Of a stretch of 64,000 nucleotides of DNA, positions 1 to 8,261 are shown piece after piece. The notes beneath the pieces were generated by a model. It did no database searches and had not been told where the DNA came from. It saw nothing but the letters and a program-made list of their open reading frames with translations. Each line of letters opens with the position of its first letter. The first letter of the stretch is position 1. Origin of the DNA: Eledone cirrhosa (Eukaryota); the NCBI GenBank assembly GCA_964016885.1, contig OZ024740.1:154690001-154754000 (forward strand), written 5' to 3'. The position numbers and the translations under genes are program-made.

Positions 1-439
1 ATATATATATATATATATATATATATATAAGGAACCAGTAAGACCCCGACAGCTGAGCTGTATGTGTGTGTGTGTGTTTATATGCATATGTAGAATAATC
101 TGTGTATATATATGTATATGAAATAAACTGTATTAGAGACAGTTAACTTTGTAGTATTATATATTAATAATGACTGCTCCTTCGTTGTTTTGAGCTGATT
201 TAGGCGGTTTTTGGCTGCTATTTCTAGCATCGATATAAGTTCATAGTATTGTCCTGATACACTGAGTGTGATGAAAGAGCTTTGACAATATAAAAACAAC
301 CATCCGGTTATCGAACCAAACAGCCAACCAAAAATTTATAATACAGGTGCATGTGTTTTTATTGGCAGCATGACCCTCTCAAAGTATAACAATATATGTA
401 TATATATATACATATATACATATATATATGTATATATAT

Positions 440-1303
440 GTCCCAAATGCAAAGTATGGGTGCATAAAAGATGTAGTGGGATCACAGGTAAACTATCTAA
501 GAACGTAGATTTTTATATGTGACCAGTGCTCAGGTTCAATAAGTAGCAAGTGCCCACAGGATACTAGCTCCTTCTATTGCCCAGATGGCTCTATAGAAAT
601 AGTGGACACCTTCCATCAGCTGGGTGACAAAATCAGCAGTGGTGGAGGGTGCTCAGAAAGTACAGTAGCCAGAGTCAGAACGGGATGGAATAAGTTCAGA
701 GAGCTTATACCACTATTGACCACTAAAGGTTTCTCTCTAAAAATGAAAGGCCGACTGTATGATGCCTGCATACGAACAGCTATGTTACATGGCAGTGAGA
801 CTTGGGCATTGTGTGTAGAGGATCTGCGCAGACTGGAGAGGAACGAAGCTTGCATGCTCTGTTGGATGTATAATAGTAATATACGTGAACAGCAAAGCAT
901 AAATGAACTAAGTGAGAAATTAGGTATAAGAGGGATCAGATGCTGTTTACTCGAGAGAAGACTACGTTGGTATGGTCACGTGATGCGCACACCCCTTTCA
1001 ATGTAAAGTTATGTTAGTACTACAACATCCAGTCCTAAATAAATGAGGTCGTGTAGGTGTCACGACAAAAAACATGCATTCCACACTGTAATGTGGCCGT
1101 GTAGGTAACACGGTAAAAACCTCCCAGTCCACACTGTAAACGTAGCTGGTGTTAGGAAGGGCATCCAGCCATAGAAAACCTGCCAGACAGTCCCATACGA
1201 GCAAGACAACCAATCTTGCCTCAAGTGGGACAATTCCCGTCTAAACCCATGCTAGCGTGGAAGATAGACGTTAAACGATGATGATGATGATGATGATGAT
1301 GAT
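440..1303 (+). mobile_element. RTE-clade LINE, 3' fragment with internal deletion and (GAT)n tail
   Basis: RT C-terminus (ARVRTGWNKF, LHGSETW, RRLRWYGHV), a 3' UTR shared with other copies, and a (GAT)n tail at 1277-1303. Confidence 0.9.
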
Positions 1304-1502
1304 GAATGATGATTTTCTTCGAATTAAAAAGTTCTAGTCCTGTAGAAGCCATTTCTATATTGAATATTATATATATATATATATATATATATATATATAT
1401 ATATATATATATATATATATATATATATATATATATATATATATATATATATATAGAGAGAGAGAGAGAGAGAGAGAGAGAGAGAGAGAGAGAGAGAGAG
1501 AG

Positions 1503-4389
1503 ATGGAAGACCAACATAATTCCGTCAGCCACACCTCTCCCTGCGCTCCCAACCCATCCCTTCCATCCACCCAGCAAAATCCAAAACTTCAGAATTGGTA
1601 CCATGAACGTAGGCACATTGAAAGGTTGCTCAAATGAGGTTGTAGAGATGCTTGAATGTAAGGAAGTTGATGTTTGTTGTGTTCCAGAGACTAGGTGGAG
1701 GGGTGGGTCTGCTAGATTCATTTTGGACAAAAAATGATGCTATAAACTTTTCTGGATGGGAAATGATAATGGGCTGGGTGGAGTAGGAATTATGTTAGCA
1801 GAAAAATGGGTAGAATTGCCGTAAATAGAATGAAGGACAGAATAATTAAAAGAAGACTAGTTCTAAATAGAACAACTGTGTCAATAATAGCTGCTTATGC
1901 ACCCCAATCTGGCATACCTGACATTATAAAAGACAGGTTCTATGAGTCGCTAATGCTCACTACTTCCCAAATAACCAACAATGACTACATAATTATTGCT
2001 GGTGACCATAATGGTCATGTTGGACAACATTGTGAGGGCTATGATGGAGTCCATGGAGGCTATGGGTTTGGTACTAGAAATGAGGAAGGCTTCAGGATCC
2101 TGGAATTCTGTGATGCTAATAACCTAACTATCTGTAACACAAACTTCAAAAAACAAGATAATTACCTATAGATCAGGAGAACACACCAGCCAGATAGATT
2201 TTATCCTTACTAGAAGATGTGACTGGGTGTCTGTTGTAAACACTAAGTCCCTCCTTCGTGAAGAATGCATCTCCCAACATAGCCTAATAGTTAGTGACCT
2301 TATAGTCAGGACTAGAAGTACTCGATGACAAAGGACTACCTTGAAGAGAAAAATATGGAAGTTGAAGGACCCCACAGCCTGTAACAAATTTAAGAGCATA
2401 TTACTTGATGCTTTTGACAGTAAGGAAGAGCAATTAGAGACGTACAATATAGAGGAACAGTGGGAATTCCTGAAAGTTAACCTGCTGAAGGCGACAGGTG
2501 AAATCCGTGGTTGGAGCAGACCTATAGGCAGAAGGAGAGTAACTTGGTGGTGGAAGAGTAAGATGGAGGAAACAATCAAGGCCAAAAAGCAAGCTTGAAA
2601 AGTATGGCGGGATGGGGGAAGTAGAGAACACTATCAGGTGGCTAGGAGAGAAGCTAGGCGACAAGTGTACTTTGCAAGAGGGGAAGCAGAGGATAGAAAG
2701 TTCAAGCATGTTCTACAACGTGAAGACCAAAAACGCAAGGTGTTCAGGATTTCAAGACAATGTGTAAAGGAAAACTGTGATATTGTCAGGGAGAAGTGTG
2801 TACGTAATGATGATGGTATACTTGCCCTCACTGACACTGACAAGAAGGTAGCTTGGAAGTGTCACTACGAGAGACTACTAAATGAGAAGAATAAATGGGA
2901 AAAAGATAGTCTGCCCCAAATCGATCCAATAGAGGGACCAGCTGTGCAAGTTAATGGTAGTATAATAAGTAAGGCAATCAAAGATAGGAAGACAGGCAAG
3001 GTAGATGGGCCTTCGGAGATAGTTGGTGTGATGTTGAAAGCATCTGGAATGGTGAGACATACTATGGTCACCCGGATAGTAAACAAAGTAATACAGAATG
3101 GGGTCATACCAAATGACTGGCGTAGCAGCAGCATCATTAACTGCTACAAGGACAAAGGAGACACTCTAGATAGAGAAAACTATAGAGGCATTAAGTTAGT
3201 TGACCCGATCATGAAGGTCACAGAAAGAGTTATTGCACAACTAATTAGAGACCGAATTGATCTAGATGAAATGCAGTTTGGGTTTGTGCCAGGTAAAAGT
3301 ACCACGGATGCTCTTTTCCTTGTATGGCAACTACAGAAGAAGTACCTAGCTTGTGACAGAGTACCCCGTTCCATTATCTGGTGGGCCCTTAGAAAACTAG
3401 GAGTAAATGAATGGCTTGTGAGAGCTATACAAGCCATGTATAGAGGAACAGTCAGCAAGGTTAGAATTAATAATGAATATAGTGAAGAATTTAGCGTAAA
3501 AGTAGGTGTTCATCAAGGTTCCGTCCTTAGCCCCTCCTGTTTATTATTGCCCTGCAGGCTATAACATAAGAGTTTAAAACCGGCTGCTCATGGGAACTTC
3601 TATATACAGATGATCTAACTCTCATAGCTGAATCTATGACTCAACTAGAGAAGAAATTCCAAACATGGAAGCATGGCCTAGAATCAAAAGGCCTTAAAGT
3701 TACCTTGTCTAAGACTAAAGTTCTAGTATGTAGAAAGGAAAATCGGACATATGAAAATCTGGGATATGGCCATGCTCAGTGTGTTGGAAAGGAGTAGTTA
3801 GAAATTCCATTCCCCAAATGCAAACTATGGGTACATAAAAGATGTAGTGGGATCACAGGCAAGCTATCTAAGAATATAGAGTTTATATGTGGCTGATGCT
3901 CAGGAGCAATAAGTAGGAAATGCCCACAGGATACTAGCTCCTTCTACTGCCCGGATGGTTCTAGAAAAATAGTGGACACTTTCCATTACCTGGGTGATGA
4001 AATCAGCAGTGGTGGGGGGTGCGCTGAAAGTACAGTAGCCAGAGTTAGAACGGGATGAAAAAAGTTCAGAGAGCTTATACCGCTGTTTGCCACAAAAGGT
4101 TTCTTTCTAAAAATGAAAGAGATTGTATGATGTTTGTATACGTACAGCAATGTTACATGGCAGTGAGACATGGGCATTACGTGCAGAGGACCTGCACAGA
4201 CTGGAAAGGAACGAAACATGCATGCTCAGTTGGCTGTGTAATAGTAATATACACGAACAGCAAAACATAAACGAACTAAGAGAGAAATTTGGAATAAGAG
4301 GGATCAGATGGTGTTTACTTGAGAGATTACGTTGGTATGGTCATGTGATGCGCATGAAAGATGACAGCTGTATAAAAAATTGCAGGGCA
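1503..4389 (+). mobile_element. Degenerate RTE-clade LINE (APE endonuclease + RT), multiple frameshifts, 3'-truncated
   Basis: [54 protein letters not shown] in broken frames. Confidence 0.92.
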
Positions 4390-4524
4390 ATCATCAGTGG
4401 TACTATTATGTTTCCTCTCGTTTTATTGTAAAGCCTACACCATTTTTAAAATACAACAGGAGGAAACATAATAGTACCACTGATGATGTCGCTGATGTGT
4501 GACGAAAGAACTTTGATAGACTAT
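4390..4524 (+). mobile_element. Small fold-back element: 28-bp inverted repeat (4390-4417 / 4460-4487) with an HHR-like motif (4471-4524) ending at (TA)n
   Basis: atcatcagtggtactattatgtttcctc / gaggaaacataatagtaccactgatgat. The right arm runs into CUGAUGA-U-GUCGC..GUGAC-GAAAGAACUU. The element truncates the upstream RTE copy. Confidence 0.65.
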
Positions 4525-7064: not shown

Positions 7065-7526
7065 CTATTCTCAGTTAAGTCTCCAGGCAATGCGCGGACA
7101 CTGGCGGCTCATATAAAAATAATAATAATTCGGTAGATCGAACAGCTTGCGAGGACTGGATTCTATGTACCGAAATTCTCACTGCTTCAAGTCAAATGGC
7201 CGATTCTAAAGAATCAATCACGTGACACAGAGGCTAGTTAGAAGGAATGGGATGGTAAGATGACTGACGCCTACTAACACCCCAAAAATAATTTTTTTAG
7301 AAGTGGTATATATATATATAAAGGTTTACACATATATATACATATATATGTGTGTGTGTGTGTGTGTGTGTGTGTGTGTGTGTGTGTGTGTATGTGTGTG
7401 TGTGTGTGTGTGTGTGTGTGTGTGTGTGTGTGTGTGTGTGTGTGTGTGTGTGTGTGTGTGTTTTGCAACGGGTCACTTTGTGGCTCAATGAAGAGTTAAT
7501 AAATTAAATAATCAGAGCTATATATC

Positions 7527-7843
7527 ATAAAACATGTCTATAGAATCACCAGATAAAATATATACCGTTTCCTCTCCCAATTAGCATAATTAACCATATA
7601 AAAAATCGATTAGACCAAGCTATAAGAATAAAGGCTTCTATGAAGAAATCTCCGACAATTAACCGAAAGCAGCCCTTTGCGGTGCTGCCACGGAGTATTT
7701 ATCGAGTATTTCGACAGCGTGTATAAATCGTTCAGATATACAGTCAACTAAACAGAATTAGGTGTAAAATAAACTAGGAGAAAAGTTAACATATTTAGGA
7801 AACGGTATATATTTTATCTGGTGATTCTATAGACATGTTTTAT
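7527..7843. repeat. Fold-back element with 47-bp perfect inverted repeats (7527-7573 / 7797-7843)
   Basis: ataaaacatgtctatagaatcaccagataaaatatataccgtttcct and its reverse complement. Abuts (TA)n. Confidence 0.8.
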
Positions 7844-7952
7844 ATATATATATATATATATATATATGCAAAAGTTCTATTTAAATTGTTGGGATACAAC
7901 AAGCAAATATTTTCATAACTGATATAAAGCACTCGACAAGTATTTGGAGTAA

Positions 7953-8261
7953 ATATACGATATTAATAAATGGAAACTATATTTATAAACCCATATTTAT
8001 TTCATTATACATATTTCAAGGATACCATGTTAAATTATGGTATGCCTTCATCAGACAAAATACAATATATACCAGTTTTATAAATAAACATTGACGTACC
8101 CTTTCAAAATGCGACCGTTACTTTTGGAAGACATCCTGATTCTTCCAAAAGTATTTTGTCTGATGAAGGCATACCATAATTTAACATGGTATCCTTGAAA
8201 TATGTATAATGAAATAAATATGGTTTTATAAATATAGTTTCCATTTATTAATATCGTATAT
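7953..8261 (+). mobile_element. Fold-back element with 111-bp inverted repeats (7953-8063 / 8151-8261) carrying an HHR-like motif at ~8160-8206
   Basis: Arms match with 1 mismatch. Right arm reads CUGAUGA-AGGcAUACCAU..AUGGUAUCCU-U-GAAAUAUGUA and ends in (TA)n. The spacer contains a separate 13-bp hairpin (8119-8153). Confidence 0.75.

What the first reader, a model, noticed from the sequence alone, without database searches (positions are those of the whole stretch)
247..8261. Recurring architecture: short non-coding elements ending in 'HHR + short tail + (TA)n', often with a fold-back 5' end
Seen: within 8 kb, besides the tandem array, HHR-like motifs of different sequence occur at 247-290 (stem I tattgtc/gacaata, core partly deleted), 1307-1368 (decayed copy of the 27498 HHR family with the same tail into TA), 4471-4524, 5644-5679 and 8160-8206. 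Two of them sit in inverted-repeat elements. All end within ~0-110 nt of a (TA)n tract. Inference: several distinct families of ribozyme-tipped, TA-microsatellite-targeting non-autonomous retroelements have piled up at this site, each insertion leaving new TA targets.
Basis: partly seen in the sequence, partly recalled or inferred. Interest (0 to 1): 0.7.

Follow-up and report, generated by a model that had tools for sequence, protein, structure and literature searches.

The report
Penelope retroelement stubs in TA microsatellites
These ribozyme-tipped fragments are mostly the cut-off ends of several protein-coding Penelope-type jumping genes, plus a few non-coding ribozyme repeats, all sitting in TA microsatellites; the pattern is known, but nearly every two-armed copy pairs one short end with one longer end, which likely means the enzyme copies its RNA once from each side of the cut chromosome.

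Summary
The architecture is real but mostly known. In 80 evenly spaced 10-kb samples of this genome, 32 of 59 hammerhead motifs had (TA)n within 150 nt downstream, against 10.7% of random sites. All five listed motifs belong to multi-copy families. Corrections: 247-290 is a chimera of two elements; the (TA)18 after 4471-4524 is internal (the element ends at 4786); 1307-1368 and 5644-5679 have damaged cores. 'Non-autonomous families' is largely wrong: the 4471, 5644 and 8160 elements are 5'-truncated pseudo-LTRs of coding Penelope-like elements (Nematis-like, Neptune, Hydra), and the 27498 family is a Hydra 3' end. The 559-bp array and the 7461-7842 piece belong to families with no ORF seen. 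Fold-backs are the known 5'-inverted pLTR with a one-sided tail. Added here: inverted insertions pair one short with one long end (47/48, 19/22, 8/8, 4/4; retrozyme arrays 12/12), and 9 of 10 ends sit on a 3-8-nt TA run of the template. This likely reflects two TA-primed reverse transcriptions per insertion, also for retrozyme arrays. The scan noted the paired ends and Penelope origin before on other DNA of this genome.

The parts
76..267 (+). Body of a separate repeat family, cut at 267; in other copies an HHR-like motif appears to follow about 230 nt further on (read by eye)
   Evidence: L034 85%
266..392 (+). F1: 5'-truncated PLE pseudo-LTR starting inside HHR stem II; short 3' end; with 76-267 it makes the chimeric '247-290 HHR'
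437..1313 (+). Fragments of a non-LTR LINE with (GAT)n tail (RTE label recalled, not tested)
1307..1367 (+). F2b: remnant of a sister subfamily of the 27498 family, cut at the HHR core, GAAA lost; short end into (TA)n 1368-1455
4390..4448 (-). F3 inverted 5' arm (the fold-back)
4447..4786 (+). F3: pLTR of a coding Nematis-like PLE; HHR 4474-4521, internal expanded (TA)18 at 4522-4559, likely first 22 codons of the ORF at 4720-4786, long end into (TA)n
5541..5760 (+). F4: 5'-truncated pLTR of a Neptune-type PLE; minimal HHR 5644-5679 with a core substitution
   Evidence: L232 87-90%
5761..5792 (.). (TA)16 shared tail-to-tail by F4 and F6
5793..7307 (-). F6: 2.7 units of a 559-bp tandem HHR repeat with no ORF seen (retrozyme); HHR cores at 5941, 6500, 7059; short end at 5793
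7461..7842 (.). F8: inverted, 5'-truncated piece (long end left, short end right) of another tandem HHR repeat (about 680-nt unit in L220); its HHR is not included here
7841..7866 (.). (TA)13 shared by F8 and F5
7867..8135 (-). F5 left arm: pLTR of a Hydra-clade PLE, HHR core at 8054, long end with 90-nt tail
   Evidence: L357 97%
8151..8256 (+). F5 right arm: HHR 8160-8208, short end into (TA)27
22072..27585 (.). F2 (27498 family): two inverted 3' ends of a Hydra-clade PLE; C-terminal ORF piece at about 22540-22760, microsatellite-rich 3' region, a LINE inserted inside
27586..28080 (+). F7: unit of a 466-bp tandem HHR repeat (Rfam HH9 E 2.5e-6, below gathering); its first 301 nt are duplicated inverted at 21771-22071

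Best explanation
The elements are 5'-truncated 3' ends (pseudo-LTRs) of several coding Penelope-like retrotransposon families plus two tandem hammerhead repeats with no ORF, and they were likely all inserted by Penelope RT/GIY-YIG proteins into (TA)n. Shown: family identity, link to ORFs, two fixed 3' ends per family (one for F4), head-to-head inversion with variable junctions, short+long pairing, TA runs in the template at the ends. Inferred: the endonuclease nicks both strands of a (TA)n tract; each 3'-OH pairs over 3-8 nt with a UA run in the element RNA at one of two internal start sites; two cDNAs are made, usually stop early, and are joined head-to-head by 0-4 nt microhomology. The HHR rides along because it lies just upstream of the start sites; cleavage does not appear to set the 5' ends. 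The tandem retrozymes would borrow the same proteins and insert as whole multimers. TA left on both sides would serve as later targets.
For: Same end joined to a PLE ORF: F3 in L223/L231, F4 flanking a 625-aa ORF in L232, F5 followed by a Hydra-type ORF in L357, F2 downstream of a 506-aa Hydra-type ORF in L235; F1 has a GIY-YIG C-terminal remnant (19/34 identical, E 9e-8). Variable 5' truncation. Short+long pairing among classifiable inverted pairs: F5 47 of 48, F2 19 of 22 (2 more unclassified), F3 8 of 8 (3 unclassified), F1 4 of 4 (3 unclassified); F6 arrays 12 of 12, picked by me for having both strands, all with TA-rich repeat at both ends. Template continuation read by eye at 10 ends: alternating TA run of 3 or more in 9 versus 6.1% background. 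TA enrichment. Published basis: inverted pLTR with tail at one end, (TA)n targeting, Hydra-1 in Octopus; tail equals the stretch between two RT start sites, both strands nicked and extended, HHR cleavage not needed.
Against: No empty-site comparison, so target handling is unproven. Pfam support for the ORFs is weak: 4 of 6 proteins hit RVT_1 or GIY-YIG, all below the curated cut-off; clade calls rest on motifs compared by eye with PMC8557442. For the anole Poseidon element priming was reported as non-homologous to the cut DNA. F2's short end shows only 1 nt of TA overlap; 4 classifiable pairs are long+long or short+short. No coding partner shares sequence with F6 beyond 71% relatives without an ORF link, so its mobiliser is unidentified. 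Loci were recruited by window-based queries (top 30 of 40 scored), which favours young, similar copies. No cleavage or expression data.
Confidence: 0.8

Rival explanations
1. All listed motifs are dedicated short non-autonomous families.
For: Most copies are short and non-coding; F6, F7 and F8's family are tandem repeats with no ORF seen; F5 inversions cluster at one small palindrome, mimicking a fixed 5' end.
Against: F2, F3, F4, F5 continue into ORFs in other copies, F1 into an endonuclease remnant; F5 extends at least 420 nt further upstream in several copies.
Confidence: 0.08
2. One reverse transcription, then fold-back or antisense self-priming; the short end arises by endonuclease trimming of the intermediate at an internal TA site.
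For: Proposed in print: tail from EN-mediated resolution (PMC8557442), self-priming at palindromes (PMC3846280). It also predicts one tail per insertion and TA runs at short ends. F5 junctions cluster at an ATC-NN-GAT palindrome.
Against: The two arms usually have different, non-mirror 5' break points and either arm can be the longer or carry the tail; long ends also sit on TA runs; the in vitro work maps both ends to RT starts.
Confidence: 0.2
3. The (TA)n tracts grew after insertion from TATA seeds inside the elements, and ends were cut back by recombination between tracts; there is no targeting.
For: F3's internal TA run is expanded to 18 units at 4522 and many F3 copies stop there; F4 ends at an internal CA/TA run present in both pLTRs of L232.
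Against: It does not explain strict short+long pairing, or TA on the 5' side of non-inverted copies; (TA)n preference is recorded for Hydra elements.
Confidence: 0.07
4. The retrozyme arrays (F6) grew locally by unequal crossing-over or came from rolling-circle copying by a non-PLE enzyme.
For: Local amplification and rolling-circle routes are the models discussed in 10.64898/2026.07.22.740005; PMC7229834 leaves LINE or PLE open.
Against: 12 of 12 inverted arrays show the PLE footprint: one inversion, one short and one long end, TA flanks. A circular RNA template copied by a PLE enzyme is not excluded.
Confidence: 0.12

Closest known systems
Endonuclease-bearing PLE insertions with inverted pLTR and one-sided tail (PMC3846280 passages; PMC8557442 passages)
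   Same: 5'-truncated copies, inverted arm, tail on one arm, pLTR plus tail covering about 22 codons of the ORF (F3), HHR in the pLTR
   Different: Tails here are 44-127 nt rather than 30-40; pairing is counted here and is near-obligatory; target duplications cannot be read in (TA)n
Hydra clade PLEs (PMC8557442 section 11; Hydra-1_Obim in its supplement)
   Same: F2 and F5 partners: CxCX5C linker, CxxC and CxH motifs, HHR, (TA)n insertion
   Different: F2 has a 3' region of about 2 kb of microsatellite mosaic; no tree was built against the published Hydra set
Neptune clade PLEs
   Same: F4 partner: C-terminal GIY-YIG with CX4CxxC linker; minimal HHR with a base between positions 9 and 10.1 and palindromic stem III (PMC4209133 passages)
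   Different: F4 shows one end, at an internal CA/TA run; clade call by motif only
Nematis clade PLEs
   Same: F3 partner: similar linker and endonuclease to the Nematis rows in the PMC8557442 supplement (by eye)
   Different: About 70 extra residues between RT motifs A and B', where that paper places the insertion-in-fingers said to be absent from canonical PLEs
Animal non-LTR retrozymes (PMC7229834 passages; 10.64898/2026.07.22.740005 parts 1-3 of 5)
   Same: F6, F7: tandem units with a type I HHR, no ORF seen, low GC
   Different: Dispersed arrays carry the PLE insertion footprint; circular RNA and cleavage not tested
Non-autonomous Chlamys PLEs (PMC8557442, PMC9977147 passages)
   Same: Non-coding partners, head-to-tail copies, very short 5'-truncated insertions in microsatellites
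   Different: Those target (C)n/(CA)n and mostly lack HHRs
Poseidon of Anolis in vitro (PMC11167929 parts 1-2 of 4)
   Same: Two internal RT starts bounding the tail; both strands nicked; AT-rich target
   Different: Priming reported as non-homologous; here ends sit on TA runs matching the target

Membership tests
EN+ Penelope-like elements (F1-F5) | Single ORF with PLE-type RT and C-terminal GIY-YIG linked to the end | tested here: met
   F2 L235, F3 L223/L227/L231, F4 L232, F5 L356/L357; ORFs are often broken; Pfam hits below cut-off; F1 only a remnant; F2b not found
EN+ Penelope-like elements (F1-F5) | pLTRs from partial tandems | tested here: met
   L223 (821 and 4955), L232 (5860 and 2405), L357 pLTR directly before the ORF; not seen for F1, F2
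EN+ Penelope-like elements (F1-F5) | 5'-inverted arm and tail at one end | tested here: met
   F4 not counted
EN+ Penelope-like elements (F1-F5) | RT phylogeny within PLEs | not tested
   No tree built; motifs and homologues only
Hydra clade (F2, F5 partners) | CxCX5C linker, CxxC and CxH in endonuclease, (TA)n target | tested here: met
   L235 protein, L356 C-terminal frame against PMC8557442 section 11
Neptune clade (F4 partner) | CX2-5CxxC linker before C-terminal GIY-YIG | tested here: met
   L017, L232
Nematis clade (F3 partner) | Linker and RT like Nematis, no insertion in fingers | tested here: inconclusive
   Linker alike, but about 70 extra residues between motifs A and B'; filed as Nematis-like only
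Type I hammerhead ribozyme | CUGANGA, GAAA, UH with stems I-III | tested here: met
   Met at 4480, 8160, 8054, 5941/6500/7059; one core change at 5648; not met at 247-290 and 1307-1368; no Rfam hit; folding z-scores -0.1 to -1.5
Type I hammerhead ribozyme | Self-cleavage | not testable with these tools
   Needs in vitro assay; minimal PLE HHRs cleave poorly (PMC4209133)
Non-LTR retrozyme (F6) | Tandem non-coding units each with a type I HHR | tested here: met
   no ORF search beyond inspection of the 559-nt unit
Non-LTR retrozyme (F6) | Expressed as circular RNA | not testable with these tools
Dedicated non-autonomous family (F2, F3, F4, F5) | No coding version; shared 5' end | tested here: not met
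Type-SGC permuted hammerhead (PMC10085705) | Block order site, GAAA, CUGANGA | tested here: not met
   The intact motifs fit CUGANGA-GAAA-site order; no dedicated SGC search was run

The most novel reading that the evidence does not exclude
TA-targeting Penelope elements insert through a coordinated two-enzyme reaction in which each nicked (TA)n strand base-pairs with a UA run at a different fixed internal start site, one short and one long, and non-coding retrozyme multimers are inserted whole by the same reaction. This would explain the Penelope tail, the head-to-head inversion and microsatellite targeting in one rule and name the mobiliser of animal retrozymes.
Probability: 0.55. Interest if true: 0.62.

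Novelty: new member of a known kind. Interest (0 to 1): 0.38.

Why it matters
It reassigns a seeming zoo of new ribozyme SINEs to truncated ends of known Penelope clades, which matters for annotating a genome with roughly one intact hammerhead motif per 13-14 kb (58-61 in 800 kb). The counted short+long pairing and the TA overlap at the ends give concrete predictions for the little-studied Penelope insertion reaction, and the same footprint on a young (99% identical) retrozyme is genomic support for the proposed Penelope-retrozyme partnership. Searches returned no paper that counts the pairing or reports TA microhomology at both ends; the library lacks most subscription papers and Repbase, and the supplements of the bioRxiv retrozyme preprint were not seen.

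Tried and rejected
Rfam on the whole window and two sub-regions: no hammerhead hit inside 247-8261. Single-strand folding was uninformative for most motifs. A fixed 5' end for F5 was suspected and rejected. F8 as a DNA-transposon MITE was considered and rejected: its repeats are arms of a longer tandem unit with short and long ends. F6 as pLTR of the Hydra ORF in L236: rejected, the 71% match is a separate insertion. HHR cleavage as source of 5' ends: 0 of 41, 18, 36 and 11 incidental hits (F2, F1, F3, F4) began within 3 nt of the predicted site; alignment breakpoints are noisy and include sister subfamilies, and the F5 row was spoiled by TA in the query. The first pair count double-counted overlapping loci and mis-scored F6; replaced. 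Own-genome search with F7 gave 0 candidates, which shows nothing. Expression: no RNA holder listed; four runs of unknown kind, contigs only, were laid and say nothing on expression. Type-SGC reading checked by block order only and dropped.
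Full report
Setting. The window is C1:154690001-154754000 of a 3.0-Gb animal assembly. The best named homologue of one element protein is from Octopus vulgaris, 66% identical. I read bases 1-9000 and 20500-29000, scanned the window for type I hammerheads, searched the genome with each element, and sampled 80 evenly spaced 10-kb regions.

Is the pattern more than chance? Yes. A strict family-blind descriptor gave 58 hits in 800 kb against 0-2 in five shuffles. With a relaxed stem II and arrays collapsed there were 61 hits against 2 and 3; 32 of 59 had (TA)>=5 within 150 nt downstream, 12 of 59 upstream, against 10.7% of random positions; 23 of 59 within 110 nt and 52 of 57 within 300 nt. 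Arms of one insertion count twice, so the p-values overstate. The site is dense but not unique: 4 collapsed hits in 8.3 kb, matched by 3 of 80 regions; 10 TA clusters, matched by 19 of 80. It holds more of these eight families than any sampled region (maximum 4), but the library was built from this window. Different families 150 nt or less apart across a TA run occurred 5 times among 86 segments in the sample.

The five motifs. 247-290 is a chimera: 120-267 belongs to one repeat, 266-391 to another (F1) whose other copies have an intact HHR. 1307-1367 is a remnant of a sister subfamily of the 27498 family, cut at the core and missing GAAA. 4471-4524 is an intact HHR, but the (TA)18 is internal and the element (F3) ends at 4786; 4390-4448 is its inverted arm. 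5644-5679 is a minimal HHR with one core change in a copy (F4) spanning 5541-5760. 8160-8206 and 8054-8006 are the two arms of one insertion (F5), 7867-8256.

Are they non-autonomous? Mostly not. Copies are truncated at variable 5' points. Protein searches from upstream remnants led to long copies. F4 flanks a 625-aa RT-GIY-YIG frame with a CX4CxxC linker on both sides in L232 (Neptune type). F3 matches the pLTRs of L231 (74% over 343 nt) and L223, whose frame begins in the stretch equal to window 4720-4786. F5 is followed directly by a Hydra-type ORF in L357, 45% identical to the L235 protein. F2 lies downstream of a 506-aa Hydra-type ORF in L235, and the window holds that ORF's C-terminal piece near 22540-22760. 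F1 has an endonuclease C-terminal remnant upstream. Pfam hits were weak, 4 of 6 proteins, all under cut-off; clade names rest on motifs in PMC8557442 (sections 11 and 12, passages, supplement rows). Tandem families with no ORF seen: F6 (559 bp, 472 candidates, top matches about 99% identical), the family of 7461-7842 and F7.

Anatomy of insertions. F1, F2, F3, F5 and F6 each have two fixed 3' ends, 60, 68, 44, 90 and 127 nt apart. In head-to-head insertions one arm ends short and the other long: F5 47 of 48; F2 19 of 22 classifiable (24 pairs); F3 8 of 8 (11 pairs); F1 4 of 4 (7 pairs). Twelve F6 arrays, chosen because both strands matched, were all short+long, with one inversion each, 0-4 nt overlap or a short insert at the junction, and TA-rich repeat at both ends. 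Either side can carry the tail. Where the template's continuation could be read (10 ends, by eye), it has an alternating TA run of 3-8 nt at 9 ends; F2's short end has 1 nt; the background for runs of 3 or more is 6.1%. 5' ends did not collect at the predicted cleavage site (noisy).

Mechanism. Known: inverted pLTR with a tail on one arm, pLTR plus tail covering 22 codons (PMC3846280 passages; PMC8557442); (TA)n preference of Hydra elements, including one from Octopus; minimal HHR families in PLE pLTRs with few full copies per genome (PMC4209133 passages); two internal RT starts bounding the tail, both strands nicked and extended, HHR cleavage dispensable (PMC11167929 parts 1-2); short truncated and non-autonomous PLE insertions in microsatellites (PMC9977147 passages). 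Inferred here: two TA-primed reverse transcriptions per insertion, one from each start, joined by microhomology, and use of the same reaction by retrozyme multimers. The main rival is one reverse transcription with fold-back and endonuclease trimming. The retrozyme papers propose PLEs as mobilisers but leave the mechanism open (10.64898/2026.07.22.740005 parts 1-3; PMC7229834 passages).

Earlier notes of the scan. None near this window. Genome-wide, 8 of 1642 fitting notes were shown; several report the same Penelope origin, paired ends and retrozyme footprint on other DNA. My counts preceded that look-up; the notes are not independent evidence. One note led to PMC10085705 (passages); the motifs here keep type I order.

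Verdict. New families of known kinds, with a testable refinement of the insertion mechanism. Interest 0.38.

Noticed in passing
L221-L231, L182-L200 (F3 partner ORF): Many copies carry seven C where homologues and some copies read through with six, so the ORF is split in two frames at the same place. Could be a frameshifted master copy mobilised in trans, a slippage hot spot, or homopolymer error; the 736-aa copies were selected on that length.
   Followed up: partly
L223:1059-4713, P0001-P0120: This PLE lineage has a C-terminal endonuclease yet about 70 extra residues between RT motifs A and B', a combination PMC8557442 does not assign to canonical PLEs; 129 homologues found, mostly unnamed. 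L223 also has a long asparagine-rich insert.
   Followed up: partly
window 21771-28080: A Hydra insertion inside an F7 retrozyme unit, with 301 nt of F7 duplicated in inverted orientation on the far side (100% identical): possibly a composite re-mobilised from the F7 ends.
   Followed up: partly
L235 and window 22917-23292, 25753-26990: The F2 Hydra element carries about 2 kb of TA/TG microsatellite mosaic as its own 3' region, so it spreads target-like sequence.
   Followed up: partly
window 8136-8150 and L241-L270: F5 inversion junctions cluster at a small ATC-NN-GAT palindrome about 85 nt upstream of the HHR.
   Followed up: partly
L312, L340: Another tandem HHR repeat with a 311-nt period, in long arrays, in 2 of 80 sampled regions.
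   Followed up: no
F6 and relatives L236:6205-6632, L320: Stem II of the F6-type HHR changes on both sides between relatives while a C-A mismatch next to the core is kept.
   Followed up: partly
L354, L355: Helitron-like Rep/helicase frames (label recalled, not tested) beside F5 copies.
   Followed up: no
window 28761-29584 and 30171-33383: An 85-bp tandem array and a long 50-bp-unit array, the latter built from a motif common in this genome's repeats.
   Followed up: no
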